From: a virus
Length of the DNA: 64,000 bases
Strand: one strand, 5' to 3'
IMG/VR virus record: IMGVR_UViG_3300024999_000048
Span: 1 to 64,000 of that record
A program made the position numbers and the translations under genes. Positions within the stretch are counted from its first letter, which is position 1, and the number at the start of each line of letters is the position of its first letter. This document shows, piece after piece, positions 1 to 60,358 of the stretch. The notes beneath the pieces are model-generated. The model was not told the DNA's origin, searched no databases, and worked only from the letters and a program-made list of their open reading frames with translations.

Positions 1-562
1 TGGATAAGGATGTTCAAGCGATTGAAATATTATTAGATGGATTAACAAAAGCACATTTGAAGAATTATGATTTTAGCCTATATGATTCAAATACTTTTAT
101 TGATATTGATTATGTTTACAATGAGCATGTAAAACAAATTGAAGAATTGGAGGCATATTGTCGTGGTTTATAAATTCAAGCAAGCAATTGTAAATGGTGA
201 TCAATATATTTATGGATTTGGATTTTATTTGAGTATTGTGAAGTGGTATAAGTAATCCCATTAATTCATTAATAACAAGAAAGGTTGTGTAGTTGATGGA
301 ATTAGGTGATAAAGTTAAAATCAGAAATGGTATGCTTAGAGGAGTAATTGTCGAGATACAAAAATCCATGAAAGGTAGAAAGATATTTGTAGTTCAAATT
401 ACTAAAAATGTTAGTAATGGATATTGGGAAGAGGAATTAGAGAAAATTATTTGACCCAACGAAACTATTAATTTATACCATATTATGGATTTAGAAACCC
501 TTATAACAGTAGTGTTTCAGGGTTTGACGAATTTAAAAATTAGAAGAAAGAAGGAAATTATT

Positions 563-874
563 ATGAAAAAGTCAGATTTGAAAACGGGAATGAGATTTAA
601 AACTAGAGATGGCGAATTATATTTGGTTTTAAAAGATTGTGAAACATATTTAGGAAATCACACTTGTTTTGTAAATTTTAATGGAAGAGGATTTAATTTT
701 GATGATAATTATACCGAGGAATTAACACTTGTACAACTAAATGAAGTAGAAGAAGATGGTTATGGCGATGTCATGGAAATTTATACTACGGAAAGAGGAT
801 TTGTTAATGGTTGCACATTAGATCCTAAAGATTTAAAGTTAATTTGGAAAAGAAATGAAGCTGAATCTAAGTAG
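563..874 (+). CDS. Phage hypothetical protein (MKKSDLKTGM... type)
   Basis: ATG at 563 follows an AAGGA RBS; bounded by palindromic sites at 455 and 872. Confidence 0.6.
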   Translation: MKKSDLKTGMRFKTRDGELYLVLKDCETYLGNHTCFVNFNGRGFNFDDNYTEELTLVQLNEVEEDGYGDVMEIYTTERGFVNGCTLDPKDLKLIWKRNEAESK

Positions 875-1627
875 CACGAAAAGCAAGTTTAATTGATTTA
901 AAACAAGAAAGGAAATGATAAATTATGAAAACTATTTTAAAAGAAGGAACAGATTTTAAATGGATTAAGGTAAAAAATAGGCATGGTTATGAATTCCCTT
1001 GTCCTAAGTTATTAGATGGGAATAAATTACTACGTATAAGTGATCCATCTTTTAATTCAGTGGTTTATCACAGAGATAATGAAAATACACTAAAATTGGT
1101 ATTGATTAAAAATGGACAATATGAAGTCAATGGAAGACTATCAAACTTTTGGTATTGGTACGAATTAGATGAAAATCTTCAAATAACAGAAGAGAAAAAT
1201 GGTTATGGTAATTTCTTCGAACCTTTAAAACCTTTTGATGTTAAAATTAAATATGAAATAAGTCAATGAAAGCAAAACTTAAATGTATTCTAAATCAAAA
1301 AGAGAAAGAGGTAATTAATTATGGAAAATATTAATAAAGCATTAGTAGATATTAAAAGCCAAACTGGTCTGGAAATTAAGAACGAAAGCAGAGAAGGTAT
1401 TCCCTTATTCAATGTTCCAAACAGACAACCATTTAAATTTAATTTAGAAATTAGTTATAATTCAATTAGAGGACAAGGAAGTTTTGAACTGCATTTTCCA
1501 TCTCTATATGTCAAAGCAAATGACGTAAGAGAATTTTCTAACCAAGTAAATTTACTAACTTTCTTGATTGAGGATTTAAACAAAGCACTTAAAAAAGATT
1601 TCAGTAATGAATGGGTATTGCAATAAC

Positions 1628-1702
1628 ACTGGTCTGAGCCAGTATAAAACGCCTTAAGCTCAGAGCGTTAGCAGGGTTGATAATAATCCTGCTAGGTGGT
1701 AT
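1628..1702 (+). ncRNA. Pistol self-cleaving ribozyme
   Basis: P1 ACTGG(1628-32)/CCAGT(1639-43); loop TCTGAG pairs with CTCAGA(1659-64) as the pseudoknot; conserved ATAAA linker, TTAAG and GCG; P3 TTAGCAGGGTT/AATCCTGCTAG; G1696-T1697 cleavage dinucleotide; P2 GCC/GGT. Confidence 0.88.
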
Positions 1703-1956
1703 CAAAAAAGAAAGGATGATTAAAATGTATTATAAAAACGAGTGGAAAATGATTTTATTAACAGGAGCAGGGAAGGAGGAACAAGAAGAACAAATAGTTG
1801 AAGGAGAATTAGTTCAAGAAGGAAATGATATTTTATTTAAAAGCAGAGAACTTAATATTGTCTATGATAAAAATATATGGCATAAACTTAATGAAGTATC
1901 TAATGAATGGAATAAGTTTATTTATCTATATGTTGAAAAGGATAATTATAGACAGT

Positions 1957-1982
1957 TCCATTAAAAAGTAAAACTTATGGGA
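1957..1982. repeat. Palindromic boundary site TCCATTAAAA-AGTAAA-ACTTATGGGA
   Basis: Contains the stop codon of the upstream ORF; right arm identical to that of the 39667 site. Confidence 0.75.
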
Positions 1983-2131
1983 AAAATAATTTTATTTGAT
2001 TTTGTTCTTAGAATACATTACAATATTTGGTGTATTCTATAGAGTGAGAACTCTAAAATTATAAAGGAGGGTAGAGAGGAAAACTTAATATAGTTAAATA
2101 ATAATAAATAAAAGAGGAGAGATATTAGAAA

Positions 2132-3031
2132 TTGGCAACAATAAAACAATTGGAAGCAATAGATAGACTAAGAAAAGAAAAGTTTGCAAGAGAACATAAA
2201 ATTATAAACGGAGTTGACCATAAATTTTGTAATAAACATCACATTTATTTTCCAGAAGAAGATATATGGTTTCCATCAACATTAGAATTTTTTCATAACA
2301 GCAACAAAAATAAAACGGATGGTTTGCATCCTTGGTGTAAAAGATGTGCAAGCGACAAATCTAGCATTAATTATCTAGAAAATAGAGAAAGAAGTGATTT
2401 AGCTCATAAAAAATATGAAGGGTCTGAAAAACATAAAGCATGGTCTGCTAGAAATTATCAAATGTTTAAAGATAAGCAATCACAATGGAGAAAAGATAAT
2501 CCAGAAAAATGTAGGGAATATTCTAAACAACATAGAATACATGATATTACAGAGGCTGAATGGAAGAAAGAATTAGAAGTATTTAATTATGAATGTGCAT
2601 ATTGTGGAATCAGTGAAGAAGAAAGTATAAAAATACTAAAACAAAGACTTCATAAAGATCATGGAGACCATCTAGGAGCAAATGATTTAAGAAATAGCAT
2701 CCCTGCATGTAGAAGTTGTAATAGTAAAAAACATCAGGATGACATAGATGATTGGTATAAGAATAGAAAATTTTATACCGAAGAAAGATATAATAAAATT
2801 ATCTGGTGGCTCACAGAAGGATATAAAGATTACATAGAAGACAAACCACCGTATAGAATAATTAGGAAACAAAATGAGGGTAGAAAAGATTTTCATTGGG
2901 AGTTATGGACTGTTGATGAAATGAGGAATATGATGGAATGTATTGATATTAAAGGTAAAAGAAAAGAAATAATAAAAGATATTGAAGGAGGTATTTTAGA
3001 TGAATACTTAATGCAAGAAACGGCTAAATAA
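2132..3031 (+). CDS. HNH endonuclease with N-terminal Zn-binding region
   Basis: CAYCG...HKDH...N..PACRSCNSKK HNH motif; N-terminal C..H and CKRC; paralog of 50973..51740. Confidence 0.8.
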   Translation: MATIKQLEAIDRLRKEKFAREHKIINGVDHKFCNKHHIYFPEEDIWFPSTLEFFHNSNKNKTDGLHPWCKRCASDKSSINYLENRERSDLAHKKYEGSEKHKAWSARNYQMFKDKQSQWRKDNPEKCREYSKQHRIHDITEAEWKKELEVFNYECAYCGISEEESIKILKQRLHKDHGDHLGANDLRNSIPACRSCNSKKHQDDIDDWYKNRKFYTEERYNKIIWWLTEGYKDYIEDKPPYRIIRKQNEGRKDFHWELWTVDEMRNMMECIDIKGKRKEIIKDIEGGILDEYLMQETAK

Positions 3032-3071
3032 TAAAAACCTTGATCACATATAATAATAGTAGTGGTTAAGG

Positions 3072-3397
3072 TTGGGTAGTTTTAAGGCATGAAAATCCAT
3101 TGCCACGACTACATGGTCAGAACATTTATAACAGAACTCAATATTATTTACATGAGATTTTCAAACGACCGAATAACGGACATTAGAGCGTTACGCAATT
3201 ATGCGAAATGAGATTAAGTATTCCCCGTATTTGGTGAAAAACGTTGCTATAACCTAACTGTACGTTATTCGTATAGTTAGAGTCCTAAGTAACAGTCTGT
3301 GACTTTAAAGACGCAGGGAGCGACTTTTAACGCTACCCAATATTGGGGAACGTCTTTAATAATTTAATAAATGCTTCGTATGTATTACAGATGAAGT
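3072..3397 (+). ncRNA. Candidate structured non-coding RNA, family unassigned (strand not certain)
   Basis: ORF-poor, relatively GC-rich segment with multiple helices: TTCCCCGTATTTGGT/ACCCAATATTGGGGAA, CTAACTGTACG/CGTATAGTTAG, TTAAAGACG/CGTCTTTAA, CGCA/TGCG, GGTC/GACC. Confidence 0.5.
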
Positions 3398-3643
3398 AAA
3401 ATAAAATCAAAGGATGTGAATAACAATGACAAAAGAACAAATCAAACATTCTTGTTGGAATTGCTTGCTCCTTAACCTAGATAAAGCAGAATACAAATCC
3501 TGTATCAAAGGCCACAAACTAAAATTAATCTTCAATGTAAACGAATGCTCAGATTGGGATGGTTAATATCGATACCCAAAATATGGTATAACAGTCGCAC
3601 CATCCTTTATCTAACTTTATTTTTATATTTATACTAAACTCTA

Positions 3644-3672
3644 TTGTAATCTTGTTCCAATATTGATATACT
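3644..3672 (+). promoter_or_regulatory. SigmaA-type promoter
   Basis: TTGTAA-17 nt-TATACT with extended TG, upstream of ORF 3713. Confidence 0.5.
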
Positions 3673-6651
3673 AGTATTAATAAAGAAATAAAAATAAAAA
3701 GGAAGTGATAAAATGGAAGTTGAAGAGAGAATTAAAAACAGTATCAACATTGAGTTCAGAGATTTTAATGGAAACAAACATCTTTATTACAATGAAGAAA
3801 CGCCGTCTGAACAAATTAACTTTATTGGTTTTAGTATTGGAAACTTCATAAAATCATTAGGTTGGCCTAATGACACTGTAAAAGAAATATTGAAAAGTAT
3901 TGATGAAAATAGTTAAGGGATTGGATTTTTAGGGGAAGCAATTCCCTTTCTTCTTAAAAATTTGTATATTGCATAAATTAGATCATAAATAAATTTTAAA
4001 TAAAAGGAGAAAATACATATGAAAATCGGAACAAACGTCACAATCAAATTAAATCTAATTCCTAATCAAATCTACGGAGGAGCAATATTTGTGCCTGAAA
4101 TGGAAGAATTTTGTGGTAGAAGTGCAGTTATCACAGAGATATTATTTCCTGTTGTAAATGAAGGTGAAAGTAAATTTAGTTATGGATTAGGTATTGATAT
4201 GAACAAGGAATTTGAATTTACTGATGAGATGTTGGATGTTGTGGAATTGGGTAAAGTAGCATAGAGATTAGTTATTTGAAGGAGGAATATATAATGAAAA
4301 AAGTTGATCCAATGACAGCTTTAAATGCAATATTCTTTGAAAACAAAAGAGTATACGTAGAACACAATGTAAACTGTCTTAATTACTCAAGAGAATTTAA
4401 ATTAGGTAAAAATATTGGAATAATGTCTGAGATACCAGTAACGGTTTTAATTCATGGTAATTGGTTTATTGTAGGATAATTTAAAAGGCAGATTTCCTAG
4501 TATTGTAAGAAAGAAAGAAAGGATGATTAAAATGGAAAATTACACTCCTGAAAAACACGGAATAGTAACAGCAATTAGACTTTTCTATGAAAATGACAGA
4601 CAACCAATGGCAGAATTAGCTTTTTGTTTTGGTGGTACGGATATTATCGAATGGACAAATGTTAGTCAAAGAGAAAAATATAGTAAAGGAATTAACGGTT
4701 ATACTTTTTTCTTTGATGAAAGACAGCAGAATAGTTTTGAAAGTTTTAAAAAATAATTAAAATTTGAAAGGATGGATTAAAAATGAAAATTTATAAATTA
4801 TATAGAATTGATGGATTTTCAGGTGATTCATATTATTGTATTCCTAATGAAATAACATTAGGTTATTATGTTTCAAGAGAAAAAGCAGAAGCACATCCAG
4901 AATATCAACTATGGCTTAAAAAAGAGCAAGAGCAAAATAAGCTATATGAGAAGATTAAAGGACTATCAGATGAACAAATTGAAAATACATTATCGTCTGA
5001 AGAATTAGATATACTCAACGAAAATGACAGTTATCATAGTGAACCAAATTATGTTGGAATAATAGAGATTGATGTTATAGATTAGAATTACTTTAAAATA
5101 TAACTTTTATCTGAAATTATTATAAACAAGAAAGGATGATTAAAATGTCAGTATTAATTTGTAGTACAATTTATGGTGGTTGTGGGTATGTTGGCAGTAA
5201 TAGAGATTTTTCAAGTAGTGATGATGGAGATTTTGTATTTTGCCCTGCTTGTGGCGAAGACCATGCTTTTCAAATTCTCAAACAAAATATTAATGGATTG
5301 ACAAATGAAAATAATTATGAAAAAGCAAAAGAATTAATGATAGGTTATTATAAAGAAACTCCAAGAAAAATATTTAATACTGCTCTAGAAGTTTCGGTTG
5401 CCGGATACAACGAAATACTTTATGAAAATGAGTTTTATCAAATAGTTGGTGGAAGAGATACTACTTTATTTGTAAGAGGAGAAGGTAGTAGAAGTGAACC
5501 AAGTGAAATTGATGTTAGTAAAGTAGAACAGTTTATAAGTTCAATACGTTAAAAGAAGGAAGATTAAATATGAAAAACATTGATGAACTAAGTGAAGAAT
5601 ATCGCAGAGCATGTAAACAAGAAATGATGAATGATTTAGTCAAAGAGTTTAATCTACTATTAGTTAATGAAAATGTTTCTGGAGAAAAGATAAGTTTGAC
5701 TTTTCAAATGTTAATGAATACTATTAAAATTTCTCAAATGAGTTAAATTATAATTTTAAAAAAGAAAGGATTGATAATCTAAATGTATAAAGAAAATGAT
5801 AAAGTTATGGTCACATGTAAAGAGATTAGTAGTAAAGATGAGTTGGCCTATATTGCTTCAAGAACTCCCTTTGGTGCATATGAAGTGACATTACTAATGG
5901 ATCATAAGCCTAGTAGTGGATTTGATCCTGTTAGAGTTTTTAGCATAGAACAAATGCGCTTTGCTACTAAGCAGGAAGTTACTGATAATGTAAGAGAGTG
6001 GGAAGTGAGACATAATTATAAGTTAGGAGGAATGATTTAAGATGTCAAAATGTAAATACTGTGTGATTTTACCATTAAGAATAGGTAAAGCAAAAGAAGT
6101 TCTAGGGGATAGGGTTTTTCATTGTATTGTCAATAATGACAAAGTAGAAATTTTAGATGATAATTCAGAAAGAAAAATTCATGAGATGGAATTAAATGAA
6201 GTTAAGTTTGTGGATTATACTGATGTCTACTATAAAGATGATGTAACTATGTGGTTAAGATAGGCATTAAAATCACTCTTTGGTCGGATTACAAATTAAG
6301 AAAGAAGGAATAAAAATGAACAACAAAAATTTTAAATATCTATATATCATATCTTCTTATGCTGGTGATAGAGGAAACGTTGAGCAAGGTATATATAAAA
6401 TGAATTTAAATACTGAAGAGATGAGAAAAGCATGTGATGAAGATTTTCAAAAAAATTATCCTGAAGTAATAGTTGGTATGCATTTGTGTTCATCGATAGT
6501 TATTGAAATAAAAGATATCGGAATTGATGCGTTCATTAAAAATGGAGATGAATGCTGTAACAAATACCAACAAGAGCAAAAGGATATTGAAAAACGTGAA
6601 TTAGCCGAACTTGAAAGATTACAAAAGAAATACAACCAATAATAGAGAACT

Positions 6652-6703
6652 ATATTTCCCCACTAAATCCATAAAAATAAATGGATATTTGTGAGGGAAA
6701 TAT
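6652..6703 (+). terminator. Long hairpin, possible terminator
   Basis: ATATTTCCCCAC...GTGAGGGAAATAT followed by T-rich sequence, after ORF 6280..6642. Confidence 0.45.
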
Positions 6704-6714
6704 TTATTTTTATA

Positions 6715-6743
6715 TTGTATTACATACAGCACTATGATATAAT
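6715..6743 (+). promoter_or_regulatory. SigmaA-type promoter
   Basis: TTGTAT-17 nt-TATAAT with extended TG. Confidence 0.6.
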
Positions 6744-6766
6744 TATATCAATCAATACAAAAGGAG

Positions 6767-6961
6767 TTGTTACATATGAGTGAAAATCCATATCAAGCAA
6801 ATGGTTATGAAAGCCGTAAACATTATTTGCAATGTATGTCTGAAGACTACGCAGTACCTTTAGAAATTGTTTATTCCCTTGCAGATATGCTTGGGCCTAG
6901 CGAAGATTTTGATGGCTTGGTCAATGCTTTAGAAGATGCTGAAGGAGAATTTGAAGAGTAG
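6767..6961 (+). CDS. Small acidic phage hypothetical protein
   Basis: YQANGYESRKHYL...EDFDGLV; distant paralog at 35247 (YQSKGYQNRKEFI). Confidence 0.55.
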   Translation: MLHMSENPYQANGYESRKHYLQCMSEDYAVPLEIVYSLADMLGPSEDFDGLVNALEDAEGEFEE

Positions 6962-7031
6962 GTAAGCTAAAACATAAGGGAGTTTAACAAACTCCCTTAA
7001 TATTAAAATAAATTTAAAGGAGTCGATCTAA

Positions 7032-8381
7032 ATGTCAAACTTTAATTTCAAAAATCTATTCTCTGAAACAGTAATACATAACGATGAATATGTCTCAAAC
7101 AAACATTTTTTAATCAAAAAATCTCTTCTAAAGAAATCTCAACTTGAATTCATAAACCAATTTCCTCTCGACACTCAATTAATTAATTCCTTATCTCAGA
7201 CTCTTAAAAATGAATCCAGAAAACCAATAATTACTGAATTTATCCCTCAATCAATCCTAGAAGATACCGAATATAACATACTCATAATGGAGTTAGACAG
7301 AGGATATAAGCCTTATAATGAGTCTACATCTAAAATATATCCTGCAATCAAAGAAGAATATTATAACTTCATTCAATCTCTCAATTGTAAAATATGCATT
7401 GTTAACAATTATCAAGTAAATACTTTAGCAATTTATAATAATCAAAATGAATTTGTTGGAATATTATTACCAATCAAAGTAAAAGATTCAAACATTACAA
7501 ATGCTCAGAATTACAATGATTATCTCAACAATCTAAAATCAGAACAAGAATCTAAGAAATTATCAAAATTAAACTCCAAGAAATGTTTATATATCAAAGA
7601 TAATAAGGCAGTAGTTAGAAATAAAGAATTAACCTGCATTGCTGATATTATCAATGATGAGGCATATAAAAACCTTTACATTGAGAAAACTACTAAACAA
7701 GATGCAGGAGTTTATATTGATCTTGGAATTGTTCATGTTTATATCAGATCAATTACAGGAGATGCTTCTCATGAAGATATTAAATATTATTTAAACAATG
7801 TCACCAATTATAATTTAGAAATGGCATTGTCAAATATTAATGAACGTAAAAACAACAATCAATTCATCAATGTTGCAGATATTAAACTCATTGAACTATC
7901 TGGAGCCATTAAACAAGAAGTGCAAGGACTAATTGATTATCGCCAAGAGTGGTGTGACAGAAAAACTAAAGAAGAACAAGAAAAGAAATCTAAGCAAGAA
8001 CAGGAGGATAGGGAGTATACTAATTCTAAAAACAAGATTGTTAATGAATTAGTATCTCAAGCAGAACAAACAATCATTAATAATCAGAAAGTTAATAACA
8101 AAGAGATCACTGTTTATAAGTCAAGATATGAGAGTAATGATACCAGTTTAATTCTTCATATGATGAAATTATATGATATCAAAGTGCCATTAAAAACTCA
8201 GGGATGGATTAATAAAGTGTTAGCAAGTATATTTTATGATGTAGAAGAGGGCAATGTTAGTTATTCATATTATAAATCTTCTGCTAATAGCAATGTGTTT
8301 AGGAAATATTTGAATGAGTTTGTTGGTAAGATTCAGGATAAGTATGATTATAAATCAAGAAAGAAGGAATCGTTATGTTAA
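7032..8381 (+). CDS. Large hypothetical protein
   Basis: 449-aa ORF with AAGGAG RBS; no recognised motif. Confidence 0.6.
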   Translation: MSNFNFKNLFSETVIHNDEYVSNKHFLIKKSLLKKSQLEFINQFPLDTQLINSLSQTLKNESRKPIITEFIPQSILEDTEYNILIMELDRGYKPYNESTSKIYPAIKEEYYNFIQSLNCKICIVNNYQVNTLAIYNNQNEFVGILLPIKVKDSNITNAQNYNDYLNNLKSEQESKKLSKLNSKKCLYIKDNKAVVRNKELTCIADIINDEAYKNLYIEKTTKQDAGVYIDLGIVHVYIRSITGDASHEDIKYYLNNVTNYNLEMALSNINERKNNNQFINVADIKLIELSGAIKQEVQGLIDYRQEWCDRKTKEEQEKKSKQEQEDREYTNSKNKIVNELVSQAEQTIINNQKVNNKEITVYKSRYESNDTSLILHMMKLYDIKVPLKTQGWINKVLASIFYDVEEGNVSYSYYKSSANSNVFRKYLNEFVGKIQDKYDYKSRKKESLC

Positions 8382-15469: not shown

Positions 15470-15498
15470 TTGACTTGTACTAATATATTGACTATAAT
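15470..15498 (+). promoter_or_regulatory. SigmaA-type promoter of the helicase gene
   Basis: TTGACT-17 nt-TATAAT. Confidence 0.7.
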
Positions 15499-15556
15499 AA
15501 GACTATCAAAAGGTGGTTATATTATAGTCAAATATATTTTAAGGAGTGTTCACAAA

Positions 15557-17800
15557 ATGAAAGATATTAAACTTTATCCTCACAATCAAGAAACTTACGA
15601 TAAGATCCAAGAACTATGGAAAATTGAAAACAAAGTTGCAGCAGTTCAGGCCACAGGCACAGGCAAATCATATTTGATACTAAAGTGTGTCTATAACGCT
15701 CCTGAAGCAAACAAGGTCATTCTAGCCCCTTCTAATTACATATTGGAGCAAATAGAAAAAGAAGCTGGAGAACAATTACCAAACACTAAATTACTGACCT
15801 ATTCTAAATTATCATTCATGAATGATGCAGAAATCGAATCTTTAAATATTAGTTATATTTTTCTTGATGAATTTCATAGATGCGGAGCTGAGCAATGGGG
15901 AGATGGAGTTCAAAGATTATTAAATACATTCCCTAATGCAAAAGTATTAGGTACTTCTGCCACTCATATTAGATTCCTAGACAATGCTAGAAATATGGGA
16001 GAAGAATTATTCAATGGAAATATTGTTAATAATTTAAGTCTTGCCGAAGCAATTGTAAAGAAAATATTACCCATGCCTAAGTATATCAGTGCATTATACA
16101 CATTTGACGATGAGGTAAATAATCTTAAAACTAAAGTAGAAAACAGTAAGAATGATGAAGAATCAAAAAAACAAATGCTAAAAGAAATTGAAACAATGAA
16201 GAATAAATTAAATAAAAGTAAAGGAATACCTAATATTCTAAAGAAACATTTATCTAAAAATTATAATGGTAAATTTATTATATTCTGTAAAGACAAAGTT
16301 CATTTAGATGAAATGAAAGAAACTGTTGTAGAATGGTTTAAGCAATCAAAAGTTACAAAAGAAGTTAATGTTTATTCTGTTTATAGCAATTATGAATATG
16401 GTAATGCAGAAGTTGAGGCTTTTATTGAGAATAAAAATCCTAAATCAGTTAAGCTTTTATTTAGCATTGAAATGTTCAATGAAGGAATTCATATTGAGGA
16501 TGTGACAGGGGTTATTTTATTAAGACCTACTGTATCACCTATTATTTACTATCAGCAAATTGGAAGAGCTATGCAAGCTGGAAAGAATAACACACCAGTT
16601 ATATTTGACTTGGTTAATAATTTTGATAATATCGGTGCTAAGAATTTTGTTGAAGATTTGGAGAAGGAAGTTAAGAAAGAAAACGATAAGTTAGATAAAG
16701 ACGATGATAAAAATGATGGTGAAGAGAAAAGGTATATTGATATTTCTGAGTTTATGATTTTTGATGAAACTCTTGAAGCTATGGATTTATTTAGTAAAAT
16801 TGAAGAAAACTTAATTGATAATTGGGATGCTAGATATGAACAATTAGAAGATTTTATTTCTAAAAATGGGCATAGTGATGTATCTAGAAATTATAAAGAT
16901 TTTATTTTTTATTGTTGGGTTAGAACACAGCGACAATCTTACAAACAAGGAATACTCAATATTGATAAAATTAAAAAACTTGATAATCTAGGTTTTATAT
17001 GGAATGTTCTTGAATATAACTGGGAAAATATGTACAATCAATTAGAAGAATTCTTCGTCAATAATAAACATAGTAATGTTGTAGTGGTTAATAAAAATGC
17101 ATTGGGTATTTGGGTAGCTAGGCAAAGATTAATTTTTAAAAGTGGTTCAATGAGTATTGAAAGAATAGAAAAATTAAATATGTTGAATTTTAGATGGAGT
17201 ATAGATGAAAATGAAGAATGGGAGAAATCATATGTTTTATTAAAAGATTATTATTTAAAAAATGGAAATTTATTAGTAAAACATGAAAATGAAAAACTTT
17301 ATACATGGATAATAACTCAAAAAAAAAGATATAAAAAAGGTACATTAGAAAATGAAAGGATAACTAAACTAGAAAGCATCGGTATATATTGGAATAATTT
17401 AGAGGCAAATTGGAATGAAATGTATAAGAATTTAATTGGATTTAAAAATGAATATGGAGATATGACCATACCTATAAAAGATAAAAGATTACAGATTTGG
17501 GCTTCCACACAAAGAGAAAATTTTAAAAAAGAGAAGATTTCTCAAGATAGAATAAATTTATTAAATGATATTGGATTTGTATGGAACTTAACCGACAAAT
17601 ATGATACACAATGGGATGATATGTATTGTTTACTTTCAGATTATATGAATATTTTCAAAAATTGTAAGATTAAACATACTTTTGTTTATAAAGATAAAAA
17701 TTTGGGCTTATGGGTAAGGAGGCAAAAACAACAATACAAAACTGATAAATTATCAAATGATAGGATACAAAAACTAAATGATATTGGTTTTATTTGGTGA
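15557..17800 (+). CDS. SF2 (DExH) helicase with C-terminal helicase-associated (HA) repeats
   Basis: ATGTGKS Walker A, DEFH, SAT and QQIGR motifs; about 5 repeats of W..MY..L..F...G...W...QR...RI..L..IGF.W. ATG 15557 follows AAGGAG. Confidence 0.85.
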   Translation: MKDIKLYPHNQETYDKIQELWKIENKVAAVQATGTGKSYLILKCVYNAPEANKVILAPSNYILEQIEKEAGEQLPNTKLLTYSKLSFMNDAEIESLNISYIFLDEFHRCGAEQWGDGVQRLLNTFPNAKVLGTSATHIRFLDNARNMGEELFNGNIVNNLSLAEAIVKKILPMPKYISALYTFDDEVNNLKTKVENSKNDEESKKQMLKEIETMKNKLNKSKGIPNILKKHLSKNYNGKFIIFCKDKVHLDEMKETVVEWFKQSKVTKEVNVYSVYSNYEYGNAEVEAFIENKNPKSVKLLFSIEMFNEGIHIEDVTGVILLRPTVSPIIYYQQIGRAMQAGKNNTPVIFDLVNNFDNIGAKNFVEDLEKEVKKENDKLDKDDDKNDGEEKRYIDISEFMIFDETLEAMDLFSKIEENLIDNWDARYEQLEDFISKNGHSDVSRNYKDFIFYCWVRTQRQSYKQGILNIDKIKKLDNLGFIWNVLEYNWENMYNQLEEFFVNNKHSNVVVVNKNALGIWVARQRLIFKSGSMSIERIEKLNMLNFRWSIDENEEWEKSYVLLKDYYLKNGNLLVKHENEKLYTWIITQKKRYKKGTLENERITKLESIGIYWNNLEANWNEMYKNLIGFKNEYGDMTIPIKDKRLQIWASTQRENFKKEKISQDRINLLNDIGFVWNLTDKYDTQWDDMYCLLSDYMNIFKNCKIKHTFVYKDKNLGLWVRRQKQQYKTDKLSNDRIQKLNDIGFIW

Positions 17801-38389: not shown

Positions 38390-39073
38390 ATGGCAAAAGT
38401 TAAAAAGGATAAGAATGGTCTAGTGGTAACTTATGATAAAGATAGAGCATCAATTTTGCAAGGAGATTCATGGGTATTCACCGATAGTTTAAATTTAGCA
38501 GAAGTTTTAGGAACAGAGAGAAAAGTAATAGTCACCAAAATAAAAGATGTTTTAAAATTTTATAAATTGAGTAGCGAGAACCACATCCCAGAAATTTATG
38601 AAATTGCGTATTATGTTAACTCACAAAACAAGAAACAACCTTACTACAAAATGTCTAAGTGGTTTACTATTGAGGTGTTAAAAAAGTGTAATCGAAAGAA
38701 TAGTTATTTAGCCAAAAAAGAATTAGAGAGAATAGGAGTTTATGATGTTAGAGATTTACCAAAAATAATCTCAGAGAATATGTTTTATAATATATTAACG
38801 GGACTATTTCCTAAATTAAAAATACATAGACAACACAAAGTTGAAAATTGTTTTGTTGATTTTTATATAGAAGACATAAAATTGTTTGTTGAATTTGACG
38901 AAGATTACCACAAAAATAAGTTACAAAATAATGCTGATAAAATAAGGGAAATAAAAATATTAAATTATAATGACAATAGTATTATTCGAGTAGATAAAAA
39001 TGATATATATGATGGATTAAGGAAAATAATATTAATAGTTAGTGATACGTTAGGCTTAAATAATGCAATATAA
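38390..39073 (+). CDS. Rha-like N-terminal domain fused to a DUF559/Vsr-like endonuclease domain
   Basis: DSLNLAEVLG...Y.NSQNKKQPYY; C-terminal RQHKV....VDFY....VEFDE.YH....D.IRE. Confidence 0.7.
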   Translation: MAKVKKDKNGLVVTYDKDRASILQGDSWVFTDSLNLAEVLGTERKVIVTKIKDVLKFYKLSSENHIPEIYEIAYYVNSQNKKQPYYKMSKWFTIEVLKKCNRKNSYLAKKELERIGVYDVRDLPKIISENMFYNILTGLFPKLKIHRQHKVENCFVDFYIEDIKLFVEFDEDYHKNKLQNNADKIREIKILNYNDNSIIRVDKNDIYDGLRKIILIVSDTLGLNNAI

Positions 39074-50972: not shown

Positions 50973-51740
50973 TTGAGAGGACAAAAGATTCCATATCAAG
51001 AAAATCACAGAATAACCAATGAAGGAGAAATACAAAAGAAATGCAACAAACACCATATTTTATTTCCAAATGAAGATCCATGGATGTCTTGCACTGAAGA
51101 ATATTTTTATAAGACAGCTCATAATAAGAGAGATGGATTACGCCCAGATTGTAAGGAATGTACAAAAATAAACTCTTCAAAATGGTTAGATGAAAATAAA
51201 GATATTAGAAAAGTAGCGAATGCTACTTATGCACAAAAACCAAAAGTTAAAAAGAAACGACAAATTAGAGATAAAAAGAGACATTCCGATGGGTATTTTA
51301 GTAAATATCAACAAGATCATAAAGAACAGATTGGTAAATATTCTAAGTATAAACAAATGAATGCGACACACAACATAAATAAAGTCGAATGGGAATCTTG
51401 TTTAAAATATTTTGATTATAGTTGTGCGTATTGTGGACTTAAGTTAAAAGATCATTATAATATGTTTAAAGGTGAACTAAGGTGGGAGATGTTACATAAA
51501 GAGCACGTTATACATAATGGTAGTAATAGGTTAGATAATTGTGCTCCTGCATGTAAGTCGTGCAATAGTCAAAAATGGGAATTCGAGTTTGACAAATGGT
51601 ATAAAAATAATATAAACTATACTCAAGAGAGATATGATAAAATTAATCAATGGTTAAATGAAGATCATAAACTTTACATACAAGATGAGAAAACAAAGAA
51701 GAAATATAAATGGAAAGTACGTAATCCGATAAACCTTTGA
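50973..51740 (+). CDS. HNH endonuclease, paralog of 2132..3031
   Basis: CNKHH..FP.ED.W, DGL.P.CK.C, CAYCG, HKEH, N..PAC..CN..K. Confidence 0.8.
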   Translation: MRGQKIPYQENHRITNEGEIQKKCNKHHILFPNEDPWMSCTEEYFYKTAHNKRDGLRPDCKECTKINSSKWLDENKDIRKVANATYAQKPKVKKKRQIRDKKRHSDGYFSKYQQDHKEQIGKYSKYKQMNATHNINKVEWESCLKYFDYSCAYCGLKLKDHYNMFKGELRWEMLHKEHVIHNGSNRLDNCAPACKSCNSQKWEFEFDKWYKNNINYTQERYDKINQWLNEDHKLYIQDEKTKKKYKWKVRNPINL

Positions 51741-52899: not shown

Positions 52900-53583
52900 A
52901 TGATATTTATTAGTGGTGACACTCATGGAAGTATGGGCATGTCAAGATTTAATATGAAAAACTTCCCTCTTCAAAAAGAACTGACTAAAAACGATTATAT
53001 GATTATTACAGGTGATTTTGGTTTAGTATTTTCATTAGACAAAGAAGAGGAGTATTGGTTAAACTGGTTACATAAGAAAAATTATGTTAGTTTATGGATA
53101 GATGGAAACCATGAGAACCATTCAATGCTAGATAAGATGCCAGTCTCAATATGGAACGGTGGGAAAGTACATTTTATTAACGATAGTGTAATACATCTAA
53201 TGCGTGGACAGGTATTTAATATCAATGGAACAAAAATATTTACTTTTGGTGGAGCTGACTCAATTGATAAAGCAAATAGGACGGAGGGTAAATCATGGTG
53301 GAAAAGAGAAATGCCATCTAATGCTGAGTATGAGGAGGGTTTAGATAATTTAGATAAGTGTGACTGGAAAATCGATCTTGTTATTTCACATGATTGCTCT
53401 ACAAGAGTTTTTGAGAAACTAATGGCAGGACTATGGGTAAAGAGTTTAACTTCCATTAACAAGTATTTTGAGGTCTTAGAAGAGAAGTTAGATTATAGGC
53501 AATGGTATTTTGGACATTATCACGAGGATAGATGGATTGATGATAAACATAGGTTGATTTATCATAATGTTGAATTGTTATAA
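52900..53583 (+). CDS. Calcineurin-like metallophosphoesterase
   Basis: GDTHG, GDFG, DGNHEN, SH and FGHYH motifs. Confidence 0.9.
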   Translation: MIFISGDTHGSMGMSRFNMKNFPLQKELTKNDYMIITGDFGLVFSLDKEEEYWLNWLHKKNYVSLWIDGNHENHSMLDKMPVSIWNGGKVHFINDSVIHLMRGQVFNINGTKIFTFGGADSIDKANRTEGKSWWKREMPSNAEYEEGLDNLDKCDWKIDLVISHDCSTRVFEKLMAGLWVKSLTSINKYFEVLEEKLDYRQWYFGHYHEDRWIDDKHRLIYHNVELL

Positions 53584-53600
53584 GGAGGTAAATATAAAAT

Positions 53601-54110
53601 ATGATTAATGAATTTAAAGGCAAATACTATTTTTTATCTAATTTCTATACTGCTCCAGTAGAATATGAAGGACTATTATATCAAAATAATGAATCTGCTT
53701 TCCAATCAGCAAAGGTTATAGATATTGAAAGACGAAAACAATTCTGCAATATAGATCCTTCTACATCTAAAAGAAAAGGTAGGAATGTTACTCTAAGGCA
53801 TGATTGGGAGAAGATTAAGGATAAAGTTATGGAAGATTGTATTAGAGATAAATTTACAAGGAATGAGGAATTAAAACAGAGATTAATTAATACTGGCAAG
53901 AAAGAATTGGTTGAAGGAAATACGTGGAATGATATCTATTGGGGAATATGTCGTGGCAGAGGTAAGAATATGTTAGGTAAGATTCTTATGAAAGTTAGAG
54001 CAGAATTACAAGAGCAAGAAGTATCTGATTGTTATGGAACTTGGAATAATTTATGCGATAAAGAATATTGTTCTGGTTGGGATAGATGTAAAGAGATAAG
54101 CAAATCCTAG
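53601..54110 (+). CDS. NADAR (YbiA-like) family protein
   Basis: FLSNFY..P..Y.G..Y...E.AFQ..K...W...K...M...KF...LVEG..W.D.YWG...G.N.LG.ILM.VR. Confidence 0.9.
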   Translation: MINEFKGKYYFLSNFYTAPVEYEGLLYQNNESAFQSAKVIDIERRKQFCNIDPSTSKRKGRNVTLRHDWEKIKDKVMEDCIRDKFTRNEELKQRLINTGKKELVEGNTWNDIYWGICRGRGKNMLGKILMKVRAELQEQEVSDCYGTWNNLCDKEYCSGWDRCKEISKS

Positions 54111-54152
54111 CAAACAAATATTTTAAAGGATATTTAAGGAGGAAGATAAATT

Positions 54153-54935
54153 ATGAGTAAAGATTCATTAGGCGACCGTATGAAGGGTTACGAAAATGTT
54201 GAGCGTAAATATTTAACTAAGAGACTCCCTTGTTTGCTTAGGATTGATGGTAAGGCGTTCCACTCATTTACTAAAGGATTTCAAAAACCATTCGACAAGG
54301 TATTGATGAAAACTATGTGGGATACTGCAAAATATCTTTGTGAAAATGTTATGGGATGTAAGATTGCTTATACTCAAAGTGATGAAATTACTTTACTACT
54401 TACCGATTATGATTCTCTTACAACTCAAGCATGGTTTGATAAAAACATTCAGAAAATGGTCTCTGTTTCTGCAAGCATGGCAACATTAGCCTTTAATAAG
54501 TCATTTTTTCAAAATTTAGATATATTTATAGACGAATATGAAGACACAGAAGAAAACACAAAATTAGCTAATAAATATTTGTCAAGAATCAATACAGCAA
54601 TGTTTGATAGTCGAGCTTTTAGTATCCCAAAAGAAGAAGTTTGTAATGCTTTCGTATGGAGACAACAAGACGCTACTAGAAATTCTATTGAGATGGTAGG
54701 TAGATATCATTTTGGAGATAAGAGATTATTCAAAGTTAATAATAATCAAATTCAAGAAATGTTGTTTCAAGAAAAGGAAATTAATTTTAATGATTTGCCA
54801 ACTTATCAAAAACGTGGAGTGTGTATTATAAAAGAGCAATATGATAAAGATGGAACTATGCGTACTAGATGGGTAATTGATGAGGATATTCCTATTTTTA
54901 CACAGGATAGAGATTATATTGAGAAGTATTTGTAA
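54153..54935 (+). CDS. tRNA(His) guanylyltransferase Thg1-like protein (3'-5' polymerase)
   Basis: DRMK.YE, RIDGKAFH.FT, YTQSDEI, FD.R.F, WRQ.D..RNS motifs. Confidence 0.92.
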   Translation: MSKDSLGDRMKGYENVERKYLTKRLPCLLRIDGKAFHSFTKGFQKPFDKVLMKTMWDTAKYLCENVMGCKIAYTQSDEITLLLTDYDSLTTQAWFDKNIQKMVSVSASMATLAFNKSFFQNLDIFIDEYEDTEENTKLANKYLSRINTAMFDSRAFSIPKEEVCNAFVWRQQDATRNSIEMVGRYHFGDKRLFKVNNNQIQEMLFQEKEINFNDLPTYQKRGVCIIKEQYDKDGTMRTRWVIDEDIPIFTQDRDYIEKYL

Positions 54936-55552
54936 AAGGAGATAATAAATAATGAATATTTATATTGGTATATATGACGAAAGTAATATAGAATTTCATT
55001 GTATAAAAATTCCAGCTATTGATTATTCAGTAGCATATAAAAAATTTATTAAATATCTAAAAAATAATATTAATAGTATATTGATTGAGGACAATATTTA
55101 CATAATAGAATCATGGTTACTAAAAAGCATTTAAAATATTGTTTTCGAGGTATTTAGAGAGGAGATAAAGTAATGAAAGATAGACAATATATTGATCAAC
55201 TTTTCACCACAGATGGGTTTGAAAATGTATTAAAAGCAATAGATGCAATGCATCCAATTGTAAAAGAAATTCAAGTATTTAAACAAGGGTATGATGTTAT
55301 TATGAAGAATATTGTGTCTATCAAGATAAAGGATGAACACGCTGAACATCTTAAATGTCAGGGTTATTTCTCAGATTTTAATGGTATTGAAATTTTAGTA
55401 GTAGAGGAAAGGGATATGGAAATTAATCAAGGTAAAATTATTTATAGTGATGGAAGTAGCAAAATAATTGATATTTATAAACCTTAATGTACACAAGGAG
55501 AGGATATAATTGGCAAAATATAGTAAAAAGTCCACAATACAAGGACACAAAT

Positions 55553-55578
55553 TACGTTAAAATGTGGGTTTTAACGGA
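55553..55578. repeat. Palindromic boundary site TACGTTAAAA-TGTGGG-TTTTAACGGA
   Basis: 9 of 10 arm positions are symmetric; lies immediately upstream of the RNA ligase operon. Confidence 0.8.
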
Positions 55579-55615
55579 TGTAATAAATAAAATAAAAGAG
55601 AGGGCGTAATAAATA

Positions 55616-56920: not shown

Positions 56921-57536
56921 ATTAATCAATAATCCTGAAGTATTAAATATCTATCAATATGGCAGTAGGGTATATAGTTGCTTCACAAATGAATCAGATT
57001 ATGATTATGTAATTGTCGTTACGGACGACTATAAAGAATTTGTAGATAATATAGAATTAGGTGACAATCATTTTAATTTTTATAAGCTATCACAATGGAA
57101 AGATATGATTATTAGGAACACAATTGAAACTCTTGAATGTCTATTTGTAGATGAGAAATTTATTATCAAGGAGTCTGTGAAATTTGATATTATAATCAAT
57201 CAAGTTGAGTTAAGAAAATCAATATCTAAAGTATGTTCTAACTCCTATGACAAATGTAGAAAGAAGTTAATAATTGAGAAAGATTTTGCTCCTTATATTG
57301 CTAAGAAAAGTCTTTGGCATTGTATCAGAATATTATTATTTGGCATTCAATGTGCTAAGTATGGAAAGATTGTGGATTATTCTGAAGCAAATAAATATTA
57401 TAATGATATTGTGCTAAATGAAAGCAGTGAATGGGAATATTATAAATCTAATTGGCATGTGTTCTGTAATAATTTGAGAACTGAATTCAGAAAGTATTCA
57501 GAGAAAGAGTGGATCAAGTGGAAAGAAACAAATTAA
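56889..57536 (+). CDS. Pol-beta superfamily nucleotidyltransferase
   Basis: YGSRVY......SDYDY motif; likely GTG start at 56904. Confidence 0.75.
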   Translation: MRRKIVNTLHELINNPEVLNIYQYGSRVYSCFTNESDYDYVIVVTDDYKEFVDNIELGDNHFNFYKLSQWKDMIIRNTIETLECLFVDEKFIIKESVKFDIIINQVELRKSISKVCSNSYDKCRKKLIIEKDFAPYIAKKSLWHCIRILLFGIQCAKYGKIVDYSEANKYYNDIVLNESSEWEYYKSNWHVFCNNLRTEFRKYSEKEWIKWKETN

Positions 57537-58441: not shown

Positions 58442-58442
58442 T

Positions 58443-58523
58443 CCAACCTTATAACCCTACTGTAACAAGGGTTTCAAAATCAACGATTCCCATTTTGTCC
58501 CATAAAAATCAAATTTTATGCTT
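58443..58523 (+). repeat. Palindromic site TCCCATAAAA-ATCAAA-TTTTATGCTT with accessory arm
   Basis: CCAACCTTATAACCCTACTGTAACAAGGGTTTCAAAAT, then 7 nt, then a partial arm TCCCATTTTG, then the full site at 58498. Confidence 0.75.
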
Positions 58524-58546
58524 TTTGGAAATTATAAAATAAATAC

Positions 58547-58576
58547 TTGACTTATTATAACTTAATATGATATACT
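58547..58576 (+). promoter_or_regulatory. SigmaA-type promoter
   Basis: TTGACT-18 nt-TATACT with extended TG. Confidence 0.6.
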
Positions 58577-58608
58577 AAATTGAGAAATAATGTTTAAGGA
58601 GATGTAAA

Positions 58609-59508: not shown

Positions 59509-59526
59509 ATTATAGAAGGTGATAAA

Positions 59527-60357: not shown

Positions 60358-60358
60358 T

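What the first reader, a model, noticed from the sequence alone, without database searches (positions are those of the whole stretch)
1628..1702. Pistol ribozyme between two phage genes
Seen: full pistol architecture, with P1, a 6-bp pseudoknot TCTGAG/CTCAGA, ATAAA, TTAAG, GCG, an 11-bp P3, the GT site at 1696-1697 and a short P2. It begins 2 nt after a stop codon, and the predicted cut lies about 15 nt upstream of the next RBS (GAAAGGA). Known: pistol ribozymes leave 2',3'-cyclic phosphate and 5'-OH ends. Inference: it processes the polycistronic early mRNA, and those ends are the substrates of the PNK-HD and ligase encoded at 55.6-58.4 kb.
Basis: partly seen in the sequence, partly recalled or inferred. 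Interest (0 to 1): 0.72.

Follow-up and report, generated by a model that had tools for sequence, protein, structure and literature searches.

The report
Pistol self-cleaving ribozyme in phage operon
A clear example of the known pistol self-cleaving ribozyme sits between two small genes of an uncultivated large phage, which is the usual setting for this RNA class, and nothing links it to the phage's RNA-repair genes 54 kb away.

Summary
Rfam's Pistol model (RF02679) matches window 1628-1701 (+) over its full length at 60.1 bits (cut-off 34.5, E 1.9e-8). It is the only significant RNA-family match in the window and the only pistol in the 121-kb virus record. P1, the 6-bp pseudoknot, P3, a short P2, the catalytic-core nucleotides and the G1696|U1697 junction are all present. 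Three related viral contigs carry the same ribozyme at 88-96% identity with mostly structure-preserving changes, although the genes on both sides differ. The layout (stop codon, 1 nt, ribozyme, 13 nt, RBS) is typical: in 60 of 82 viral pistols a same-strand ORF ends within 30 nt upstream, against 8% of random positions.

The most likely function is co-transcriptional self-cleavage of a co-directional polycistronic phage transcript, leaving the folded ribozyme as the 3' end of the upstream mRNA and a short leader on the downstream one. That function is inferred, not shown.

The PNK-HD and RNA-ligase genes do exist at 55.6-58.4 kb. They sit in what looks like a tRNA-repair cluster, and only 5 of 50 other large pistol-bearing viral records carry a homologue of either gene.

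Verdict: a new member of a known class in its known phage context, of low novelty.

The parts
1628..1701 (+). Pistol self-cleaving ribozyme, full Rfam model
   Evidence: RF02679, 60.1 bits (cut-off 34.5), E 1.9e-8, model 1-68/68; same hit, E 8.7e-12 for the single record.
1628..1643 (+). P1 hairpin: 1628-1632 pairs with 1639-1643 (5 bp). Its loop 1633-1638 is the 5' strand of the pseudoknot.
   Evidence: In alignment A1 of 82 viral pistols, P1 is 99.5% paired and 4 of 5 pairs show changes on both sides.
1659..1664 (+). 3' strand of the 6-bp pseudoknot (CUCAGA), pairing with UCUGAG at 1633-1638
   Evidence: Sequence gives 6 of 6 Watson-Crick pairs. The MFE fold finds this helix. Across the class it is 95.9% paired, and 3 of 6 pairs show changes on both sides. 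The Rfam model does not score this pairing, so it is independent support.
1644..1667 (+). Conserved core: AUAAAA linker 1644-1649; P2 5' strand 1650-1653; UUA 1654-1656; A1657 (purine 32); G1658-C1666 pair (G33-C41); G1665 (G40, general base); G1667 (G42)
   Evidence: The window matches every upper-case consensus position in the alignment. The numbering is mapped from the env25 description in passages of review PMC6154101. These columns are invariant in A1, partly because the search pattern fixed them.
1668..1695 (+). P3 hairpin: 8 bp in the model, extendable to 11-12 bp, loop around 1679-1684
   Evidence: Differences among the four relatives fall in the loop or are a C-to-U change giving a wobble pair.
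1696..1697 (+). Predicted scissile G|U junction between P3 and P2. Cleavage would leave 2',3'-cyclic phosphate on G1696 and 5'-OH on U1697.
   Evidence: The position follows from the model alignment. The cleavage site is defined as the 2-nt GU junction linking P3 and P2 in PMC4604425, section 5. Cleavage itself was not tested.
1698..1701 (+). P2 3' strand (GGUA), pairing with CGCC at 1650-1653. Three standard pairs plus an outer C x A mismatch.
   Evidence: the NC line flags the outer pair. In relatives L032 and L042, G1651 is replaced by A, turning the G.U pair into A-U.
1624..1709 (+). Conserved island shared with three related viral contigs, running from the upstream stop codon to just before the RBS
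   Evidence: (A2): 67 of 75 positions in 1628-1702 are invariant in all four sequences, against 9 of 68 in the preceding 68 nt and 12 of 68 in the following 68 nt; blastn identity 96%, 88% and 90%; metagenome contigs match only 1628-1709 and run on unlike, with loose ends at 1628 and 1709.
1321..1626 (+). Upstream ORF, 101 aa, no known family. Its RBS-like GAAAGAGG precedes the ATG by about 9 nt, and its stop TAA is at 1624-1626.
   Evidence: No Pfam or PHROG match. One weak relative in viral contigs.
1710..1964 (+). Downstream RBS GAAAGGA (1710-1716) and a 79-aa ORF from ATG 1725, no known family
   Evidence: No Pfam or PHROG match. No relative found in viral contigs.

Best explanation
Window 1628-1701 encodes a genuine pistol-class self-cleaving ribozyme. 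It lies in the 98-nt spacer between two small same-strand genes of a large (about 165 kb by estimate), low-GC, uncultivated phage.

As the long co-directional transcript is made, the RNA folds into P1, the pseudoknot, P3 and P2. G1665 activates the 2'-OH of G1696, and the chain breaks between G1696 and U1697. Nearly the whole ribozyme (69 nt) stays as a compact, 2',3'-cyclic-phosphate-capped 3' end on the upstream mRNA, one nucleotide past its stop codon. The downstream mRNA starts with a 5'-OH and a short A-rich leader, 13 nt before its RBS. The two cistrons are thereby physically uncoupled and can differ in stability and translation.

Shown here: the motif, its structure, its conservation and its typical placement. 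Inferred: cleavage in vivo, the polycistronic transcript, and the consequences for expression.
For: - Full-length Rfam match well above the cut-off, and the only significant RNA-family hit in 64 kb.
- All catalytic-core residues and the strictly 2-nt GU junction are present.
- The pseudoknot, which the model does not score as pairing, is 6 of 6 complementary.
- In 82 viral pistols, P1 and the pseudoknot covary. Covariation score 0.729 against 0.153 in shuffles, with 0 of 500 shuffles as high; sliding the partners gives 34-45% paired against 98.7%.
- Three related contigs keep the ribozyme at 88-96% identity while the flanking ORFs are unrelated. Their differences are in the P3 loop, or give G.U wobbles, or convert G.U to A-U in P2.
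- All ORFs of 120 aa or more are on the + strand except one that lies inside a + strand ORF. No promoter or terminator signal exceeds shuffles near the site.
- The placement is class-typical. An upstream same-strand ORF ends within 30 nt in 60 of 82 (8.4% of 1040 random positions). An SD-preceded start lies within 60 nt of the cut in 36 of 82 (21% of random positions). A gene start on the opposite strand lies that close in only 5 of 82.
Against: - No cleavage assay and no RNA data exist for this sequence.
- P2 is weak: three standard pairs, one of them G.U, with the outer pair C x A.
- The A-rich linker is one nucleotide shorter than the consensus, although about a dozen of the 82 aligned pistols share this length.
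- Relative L025 has a G-to-U change that breaks one pseudoknot pair.
- The transcript structure is unknown, and the promoter/terminator scan is only a crude sigma-70 and intrinsic-terminator consensus.
- Closeness to flanking genes is partly what any intergenic element in a tightly packed phage genome would show.
- The host, and therefore the fate of a 5'-OH mRNA, is unknown.
Confidence: 0.8

Rival explanations
1. One reading: the 2',3'-cyclic phosphate and 5'-OH ends made by the ribozyme are the intended substrates of the phage PNK-HD and RNA ligase at 55.6-58.4 kb, for example to re-join or circularise the processed RNAs.
For: The enzymes are real. 57509-58441 is a P-loop kinase (AAA_33, 3.6e-20) plus an HD domain. 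Its kinase part matches solved 171-residue kinase domains 4gp7/4jst at about 5e-11. 55616-56920 matches PHROG 968 'RNA ligase' at 5e-73. From established end-healing and sealing chemistry (recalled), such a set can repair any 2',3'>P / 5'-OH break.
Against: The genes are 54 kb from the ribozyme. They are embedded with a Thg1-like enzyme (2.5e-96), a nucleotidyltransferase and a metallophosphoesterase, which points to tRNA repair. Among 50 other large pistol-bearing viral records, a ligase homologue occurs in 5, a PNK-HD homologue in 5, and both in 3; among the 25 that are at least 90% complete, 3 each. RtcB occurs in 3 of 50 and PF09414 in 14 of 50. Taken together, 35 of 50 records, and 17 of the 25 near-complete ones, carry none of these. 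Resealing would regenerate a self-cleaving site. No matched control set of pistol-free phages was examined, so enrichment cannot be excluded; what is shown is only that pistols do not depend on a phage-encoded ligase.
Confidence: 0.06
2. Mosaic-junction module. Besides cutting RNA, the roughly 85-bp conserved ribozyme DNA is a boundary at which related phages exchange neighbouring gene cassettes. The short homology serves as a recombination point, or the ribozyme travels with incoming cassettes and insulates their expression.
For: In the window, L025, L032 and L042 the ribozyme is 88-96% identical, including the class-variable P3 stem and loop, while the ORFs on both sides are unrelated. Metagenome contigs from other runs align only to 1628-1709 and diverge exactly at 1628 and 1709 (tables 7 and 8; X5 and X6 look like one data set). 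Among 34 pairs of viral pistols at 85% identity or more, both 250-nt flanks are shared in 11, one flank in 11 and neither in 12.
Against: The pairs are not independent: 6 of the 12 'neither' pairs come from this one group. There is one pistol per genome here, so there is no flanking-repeat arrangement for cassette excision. Purifying selection on a functional RNA in a fast-turnover accessory region gives the same picture without any recombination role. Other short conserved islands also exist nearby (window 1-256 and 3439-3566).
Confidence: 0.2
3. Translation-sensitive cleavage. Because P1 starts within about 2 nt of the upstream stop codon, a terminating ribosome would cover and unfold P1 and the 5' pseudoknot strand. 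Cutting would then depend on how heavily the upstream ORF is translated.
For: The stop codon lies within -2 to +2 nt of the first P1 nucleotide in 35 of 82 viral pistols (31 TAA, 4 TAG). The upstream gap is smaller than the downstream gap minus 14 nt in 44 cases against 16 (p = 4e-4). In the 32 compact cases the median gaps are 1 nt upstream and 27 nt downstream. The window has a 1-nt gap. That a ribosome covers roughly a dozen nucleotides 3' of the stop codon is recalled knowledge.
Against: Genome compaction alone, with the conserved first A reused as the last base of TAA, could give this spacing. There is no kinetic or ribosome-profiling evidence. The ORF calls are crude (40 codons or more, any start).
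Confidence: 0.15
4. Chance resemblance, or a decayed and inactive relic.
For: P2 is weak and the linker is 1 nt short. Activity is untested. A passage in PMC8782182 notes that many computationally predicted ribozyme candidates did not cleave.
Against: The score is 25 bits above the curated cut-off with E 1.9e-8. The pseudoknot is perfect. The catalytic residues are intact. Relatives keep the element under structure-preserving substitution while their flanks are replaced.
Confidence: 0.03

Closest known systems
Pistol ribozyme class (Rfam RF02679). Described in Harris et al. 2015 (PMC4604425, passages and section 5 read). Weinberg et al. 2015 was seen only as cited there. env25 structures 5K7C/5KTJ as described in review PMC6154101 (passages read).
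   Same: Full architecture (P1, 6-bp pseudoknot, P2, P3), conserved core, 2-nt GU cleavage junction, location next to phage genes, low-GC setting.
   Different: Only instance-level details differ: P1 reads UGG/CCA instead of the commoner UCG/CGA, the A-rich linker is 1 nt shorter, P3 is long (11-12 bp), and P2 is 3 bp plus a mismatch. The source is a groundwater-type metagenomic phage, not a cultured Firmicute.
Bacterial and phage hammerhead and twister ribozymes proposed to process mRNAs (review PMC6765202, passage read)
   Same: Small self-cleaving RNAs near phage genes, suggested to split polycistronic transcripts into parts with different stability or translation.
   Different: Different folds. 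Their function is likewise only suggested. The review passage calls most genomic ribozymes functional orphans.
glmS ribozyme (recalled: cleavage leaves a 5'-OH mRNA that RNase J1 degrades in Bacillus)
   Same: A ribozyme cut upstream of a coding region leaves a 5'-OH on the downstream mRNA, which can set its lifetime.
   Different: glmS needs a metabolite cofactor and sits in a 5' UTR. Pistol has no known ligand and here sits between two cistrons. Whether the 5'-OH stabilises or destabilises the downstream mRNA depends on the unknown host.
Phage heal-and-seal RNA repair, T4 Pnkp with Rnl1 (recalled), as the comparison for the cluster at 52.9-58.4 kb
   Same: Kinase plus phosphatase plus ATP-dependent RNA ligase, acting on 2',3'>P / 5'-OH ends.
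   Different: The known role is repair of host-nuclease-cut tRNA. Here the phosphatase is an HD domain, the cluster adds Thg1-like and nucleotidyltransferase genes, and no link to the ribozyme was found.

Membership tests
Pistol ribozyme (RF02679) | Covariance-model score at or above Rfam's gathering cut-off over the whole model | tested here: met
   60.1 bits against 34.5, model positions 1-68 of 68.
Pistol ribozyme (RF02679) | [quoted passage not shown] | tested here: met
   P1 has 5 bp, and 1633-1638 pairs with 1659-1664 at 6 of 6. One search shows class-wide covariation in both helices.
Pistol ribozyme (RF02679) | P3 hairpin and P2 helix flanking a junction of exactly 2 nt (usually GU) that holds the scissile bond | tested here: met
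   P3 has 8 of 8 pairs, the junction is G1696-U1697, and P2 has 3 of 4 standard pairs with the outer pair C x A. The junction-length rule comes from PMC4604425 section 5.
Pistol ribozyme (RF02679) | Highly conserved core nucleotides, including purine 32, the G33-C41 pair, G40 and G42 | tested here: met
   The alignment matches every upper-case consensus position: A1657, G1658-C1666, G1665 and G1667. Roles are taken from passages of PMC6154101. The published list of '10 highly conserved nucleotides' is in a figure I could not see.
Pistol ribozyme (RF02679) | Mg2+-dependent self-cleavage giving 2',3'-cyclic phosphate and 5'-OH ends | not testable with these tools
   Needs a bench assay.
   PNK kinase plus HD at 57509-58441, and RNA ligase (PHROG 968) at 55616-56920.
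   5 of 50 records each, and both in 3 of 50; no ligase-like gene of three kinds in 35 of 50 records. No pistol-free control set was examined.
   Needs biochemistry or co-expression.

The most novel reading that the evidence does not exclude
Pistol ribozymes in phages may be portable junction modules. On this reading they are placed flush against the stop codon of one cassette and a fixed short distance before the next RBS. They would insulate the expression of freshly acquired accessory genes by cutting the transcript, and their conserved roughly 85-bp DNA would be the homology at which related phages swap the cassettes on either side. The window's ribozyme, shared at 88-96% identity by four phages with unrelated neighbours and with homology ending exactly at its borders, would be one such junction.
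Probability: 0.2. Interest if true: 0.55.

Novelty: new member of a known kind. Interest (0 to 1): 0.27.

Why it matters
In itself this is one more pistol ribozyme in the setting where the class was discovered. It confirms that the first-stage reader can recognise the motif by eye and adds an instance from an uncultivated large phage.

The biological role of pistol ribozymes is still open; a passage in review PMC6765202 calls most genomic ribozymes functional orphans. Two regularities seen here across viral contigs give concrete, testable handles on that question:
- The ribozyme abuts the upstream stop codon (35 of 82 within 2 nt).
- It often survives as an island while its neighbouring genes are replaced.

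The proposed coupling to phage RNA repair would have been interesting, but it finds no support.

Tried and rejected
- **Close relatives among deposited phages.** Megablast of window 1-5000 found no match. A tblastn search with the 776-aa helicase found only matches below 31% identity.
- **Relatives through flanking proteins.** The upstream ORF gave one weak 22-residue match; the downstream ORF gave none.
- **RNA evidence.** No RNA holder is listed among the 11 runs that hold window 1000-2600, so expression and RNA ends could not be examined. The laid runs are DNA contigs only.
- **Host or prophage relatives.** A 16-nt stretch of P3 matched 112 places in genome contigs. None of the 112 carries the pistol core pattern next to it, so these are chance matches.
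- **Shared genome layout with G022 and G007.** These records have a pistol 1.6-1.9 kb from the contig start and a ligase at about 53 kb, like the window. Only 1 of 158 window ORFs (the ligase) has a hit in either, so the resemblance is coincidental. G022 and G007 are 97% identical to each other.
- **Promoter and terminator scan of 1-8000.** 47 promoter-like sites against 52 expected. Of 5 terminator-like sites (1.8 expected), none lies near the ribozyme.
- **My first rule-based parser of P2 and P3.** It was too strict, parsing 87 of 113 pattern instances. The positional statistics therefore rest on the parsed subset.
- **Pfam on the neighbours of the related ribozymes.** Nothing passed a cut-off in 18 proteins, so no shared neighbour family was found.
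- **Other ribozymes or RNA families.** None in the window at E<=0.5 except a chance snoR22 row. None in the rest of the record. No tRNAs.
- **Lihanova and Weinberg 2021 on pistol cleavage and ligation.** The paper is not held. Only its title was seen, in a reference list.
- **Literature listings.** Searches for 'pistol ribozyme' with 'stop codon' and for pistol with RNA ligase and polynucleotide kinase listed only methods and synthetic-biology papers. Only the listings were read. Weinberg et al. 2015 and its supplements were not seen and may describe gene contexts.

Full report
**What is there**

A covariance-model scan of the whole 64-kb window against all 4227 Rfam families returns one match at curated thresholds. 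It is the Pistol ribozyme (RF02679) at 1628-1701 on the + strand, at 60.1 bits against a cut-off of 34.5 (E 1.9e-8), covering model positions 1-68 of 68. A permissive rescan at E<=0.5 adds only a chance sub-threshold snoRNA row.

The window is bases 1-64000 of a 121,089-bp linear IMG/VR virus record estimated to be 72% complete. That record holds exactly one pistol. Its remainder has no other Rfam family and no tRNA genes.

**Anatomy, from the sequence and the model alignment**

- P1: 1628-1632 with 1639-1643, 5 bp.
- Pseudoknot: P1 loop UCUGAG (1633-1638) with CUCAGA (1659-1664), 6 of 6 Watson-Crick pairs. The Rfam model does not encode this pairing, so it is independent support. The plain MFE fold also picks out this helix and a 12-bp P3 (-25.7 kcal/mol, z = -2.4).
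- A-rich linker AUAAAA: 1644-1649, one nucleotide shorter than the consensus.
- P2: CGCC (1650-1653) with GGUA (1698-1701). Three standard pairs, one of them G.U, and an outer C x A.
- Core: UUA-A-G ... GAGCG (1654-1667).
- P3: 1668-1695.
- Two-nucleotide junction: G1696-U1697.

A review's description of the env25 structure (passages of PMC6154101) names the key residues: purine 32, the G33-C41 pair, the general base G40, G42, and the G53-U54 scissile step. These map to A1657, G1658-C1666, G1665, G1667 and G1696|U1697, and all are present. Harris et al. 2015 (PMC4604425, section 5) define the cleavage site as the GU junction linking P3 and P2, whose length is strictly conserved.

The model ends at 1701 rather than 1702.

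**More than chance, and under selection**

Of the 50 largest such records, 49 hold a match above Rfam's cut-off, with 58 matches in all.

I parsed 85 unique ribozymes with a strict rule. I then dropped four of unusual parsed length (L055, L067, L085:286-377 and L117), added the window's ribozyme, and aligned the resulting 82 (A1).

On A1 the named structure is 98.7% paired against 68.1% in shuffles. The covariation score is 0.729 against 0.153, and 0 of 500 shuffles reach it. Sliding the partners gives 34-45% paired. My parser required P2 and P3 pairing, so only P1 and the pseudoknot are unbiased tests. P1 is 99.5% paired, with 4 of 5 pairs changed on both sides. The pseudoknot is 95.9% paired, with 3 of 6 pairs changed on both sides.

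**Close relatives**

Three viral contigs (L025, L032, L042) carry the same ribozyme at 96%, 88% and 90% blastn identity. In the four-way alignment:

| Region | Positions invariant in all four |
|---|---|
| 1628-1702 (ribozyme) | 67 of 75 |
| preceding 68 nt | 9 of 68 |
| following 68 nt | 12 of 68 |

Most of the differences lie in the P3 loop, create G.U wobbles in P1 or P3, or turn the P2 G.U pair into A-U. One change in L025 breaks a pseudoknot pair.

The ORFs immediately upstream and downstream are different and unalignable in all four phages. None has a Pfam family above cut-off.

DNA contigs from other metagenome runs tell the same story. Several distinct contigs align only to 1628-1709, 1639-1709 or 1652-1702 and run on unlike. 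Their loose ends fall at 1628 and 1709, and the loose letters there equal L025's flanks (tables 7 and 8, compared). X5 and X6 are probably one data set filed twice.

The ribozyme is therefore a conserved island in a mosaic accessory-gene region.

**Context**

All 44 ORFs of 120 aa or more lie on the + strand except one that lies inside a + strand ORF. GC content is 26-30%.

The upstream ORF (1321-1626, 101 aa) has its own RBS and ends with TAA at 1624-1626, one nucleotide before P1. The downstream RBS GAAAGGA (1710-1716) starts 13 nt after the cut, and ATG 1725 opens a 79-aa ORF. Neither ORF matches Pfam or PHROGs. A crude promoter/terminator scan shows nothing above shuffles near the site.

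The rest of the record encodes replication and nucleotide-metabolism functions: DnaB-like helicase, primase, NAD-dependent DNA ligase, methyltransferase and Sak4-like protein. No structural genes appear among ORFs of 220 aa or more. An early or middle transcription arm is therefore plausible but not shown.

**The layout is class-typical**

The counts below come from the 82 aligned pistols and crude ORF calls.

| Measure | Result | Comparison |
|---|---|---|
| Same-strand ORF (40 codons or more) ends within 30 nt upstream of P1 | 60 of 82, median gap 4 nt | 8.4% of 1040 random same-strand positions |
| Stop codon within -2 to +2 nt of the first P1 base | 35 of 82 (31 TAA, 4 TAG) | no control run |
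| SD-preceded start within 60 nt of the cut | 36 of 82 | 21% of the same random positions |
| Gene start that close on the opposite strand | 5 of 82 | no control run |

The ribozyme also sits nearer its upstream neighbour than its downstream one, after allowing 14 nt for the RBS, in 44 cases against 16 (p = 4e-4). Part of this is simply what a 70-nt element in a compact genome must show. The flush contact with the stop codon is more specific.

**How it most likely works**

The motif and its conservation are shown. The rest is inference.

As the long co-directional transcript emerges, the ribozyme folds and cuts between G1696 and U1697. From passages of PMC4604425, the reaction proceeds by attack of the 2'-oxygen on the adjacent phosphorus, at about 10 per minute at physiological Mg2+ for a Lysinibacillus example.

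The upstream mRNA keeps the complete ORF plus a compact 69-nt ribozyme fold ending in a 2',3'-cyclic phosphate. That should hinder 3' exonucleases (inference). The downstream mRNA begins with a 5'-OH and a short, unstructured A-rich leader. The two cistrons thereby become separate molecules with separate fates.

Whether the 5'-OH stabilises or destabilises the downstream message depends on the host's RNases. From recall, RNase J1 degrades the 5'-OH product of the glmS ribozyme in Bacillus. The host here is unknown. That self-cleaving ribozymes may process polycistronic transcripts has been suggested in print for hammerhead and twister ribozymes (PMC6765202 passage).

**The RNA-repair link**

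The enzymes exist:

| Coordinates | Identification |
|---|---|
| 52900-53583 | metallophosphoesterase |
| 54153-54935 | Thg1-like enzyme (PHROG 4717, 2.5e-96) |
| 55616-56920 | RNA ligase (PHROG 968, 5e-73; weak PF09414 and PHA02142 OB-fold matches) |
| 56889-57536 | nucleotidyltransferase |
| 57509-58441 | P-loop kinase plus HD domain; kinase part matches PDB 4gp7/4jst at about 5e-11 |

From recall, those PDB entries are the kinase domain of Clostridium thermocellum Pnkp, although the search table names them 'Metallophosphoesterase'.

Chemically such a set can heal and seal any 2',3'>P / 5'-OH break. But its composition points to tRNA repair, it lies 54 kb from the ribozyme, and re-joining would only recreate a self-cleaving site.

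| Gene sought in the 50 other large pistol-bearing records | Records with a match |
|---|---|
| Homologue of this ligase | 5 (G005, G007, G022, G026, G037) |
| Homologue of the PNK-HD | 5 (G007, G013, G026, G034, G037) |
| Both | 3 |
| RtcB (PF01139) | 3 |
| PF09414 at E<=1e-3 | 14 (11 over cut-off) |
| Any of the three ligase kinds | 15 |

Among the 25 records at least 90% complete, the ligase and the PNK-HD each occur in 3, and 17 have no ligase-like gene of any of the three kinds. Pistols therefore do not need a phage-encoded ligase. I had no pistol-free control set, so a mild enrichment cannot be excluded. The three closest relatives are fragments that do not cover the relevant region.

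**A bolder reading that the data allow**

Among 34 pairs of viral pistols at 85% identity or more, both 250-nt flanks are shared in 11, one flank in 11 and neither in 12. Six of the 12 come from the window's own group, and at least three other groups show the pattern.

Together with the exact homology breakpoints at 1628 and 1709, this is compatible with pistols acting as junction modules at which accessory cassettes are exchanged. It is equally what purifying selection on a functional RNA in a fast-changing region would give.

**Comparison with what is known, and verdict**

All sequence-testable defining features of the pistol class are met. Catalysis cannot be tested here. [quoted passage not shown]

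This is a new member of a known kind in its known setting. Its interest is low, apart from the two class-wide regularities noted above. Listings from three literature searches did not show those regularities described. However, I read only listings and selected passages, and I could not see Weinberg et al. 2015 or its supplements.

Noticed in passing
window 52900-62068: A probable tRNA/RNA-repair cluster: metallophosphoesterase, PHROG 1017 protein, Thg1-like enzyme, RNA ligase, nucleotidyltransferase and PNK-HD. It is followed by a radical-SAM protein, a PRPP-synthetase-like protein and a NAMPT-family nicotinamide phosphoribosyltransferase, which suggests NAD salvage. The 121-kb record has no tRNA genes.
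   Followed up: partly
window 2132-3031, 50973-51740 and 38390-39073; L127 817-1719: Several HNH-type and DUF559-type endonuclease ORFs are scattered through the record, one of them 430 nt downstream of the ribozyme. The three related contigs show no such family next to their ribozymes.
   Followed up: partly
window 1-256 and 3426-3566; L025 1456-1711 and 3594-3764; L032 3684-3860: Other short conserved islands are shared with the related contigs: 98% identity over window 1-256, and a 46-aa Cys-rich ORF (CWNC...C...C) conserved at about 75% amino-acid identity. The genes between them differ.
   Followed up: no
L012/L013/L065 (one 16.7-kb viral contig); also L017, L039, L057, L085, L091: Some viral contigs carry two or three pistols on the same strand, spaced about 0.6-2.2 kb apart. 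L012 has three, at 1219, 2501 and 3584. In one search, 8 of 50 large records have two matches.
   Followed up: no
G022:C1:1632-1705, G007:C1:1907-1980, G021:C1:1621-1724, G011, G041, G026, G042, G043: 8 of 58 pistol matches in large viral records lie within about 3.5 kb of a contig end, roughly twice what uniform placement would give. G022 and G007 are 97% identical and start 279 nt apart, which may mark a real genome end close to a pistol.
   Followed up: partly
window 15470-17800: A 776-aa SF2 helicase with five copies of the 'helicase associated' HA domain at its C-terminus (Pfam HA, 7e-74, 5 stretches). Its best match among deposited phages has 30% identity.
   Followed up: no
G026:C1:69879-70391: A PF09414 RNA-ligase match in another pistol-bearing record contains two in-frame TGA codons. 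This could be a broken gene or TGA recoding in that phage.
   Followed up: no
L127 3517-4320 and 7566-8582 (G000 67.5-72.6 kb): A MazF-like growth-inhibitor domain protein and a protein matching an 'integrase' PHROG lie in the replication arm of the record.
   Followed up: no
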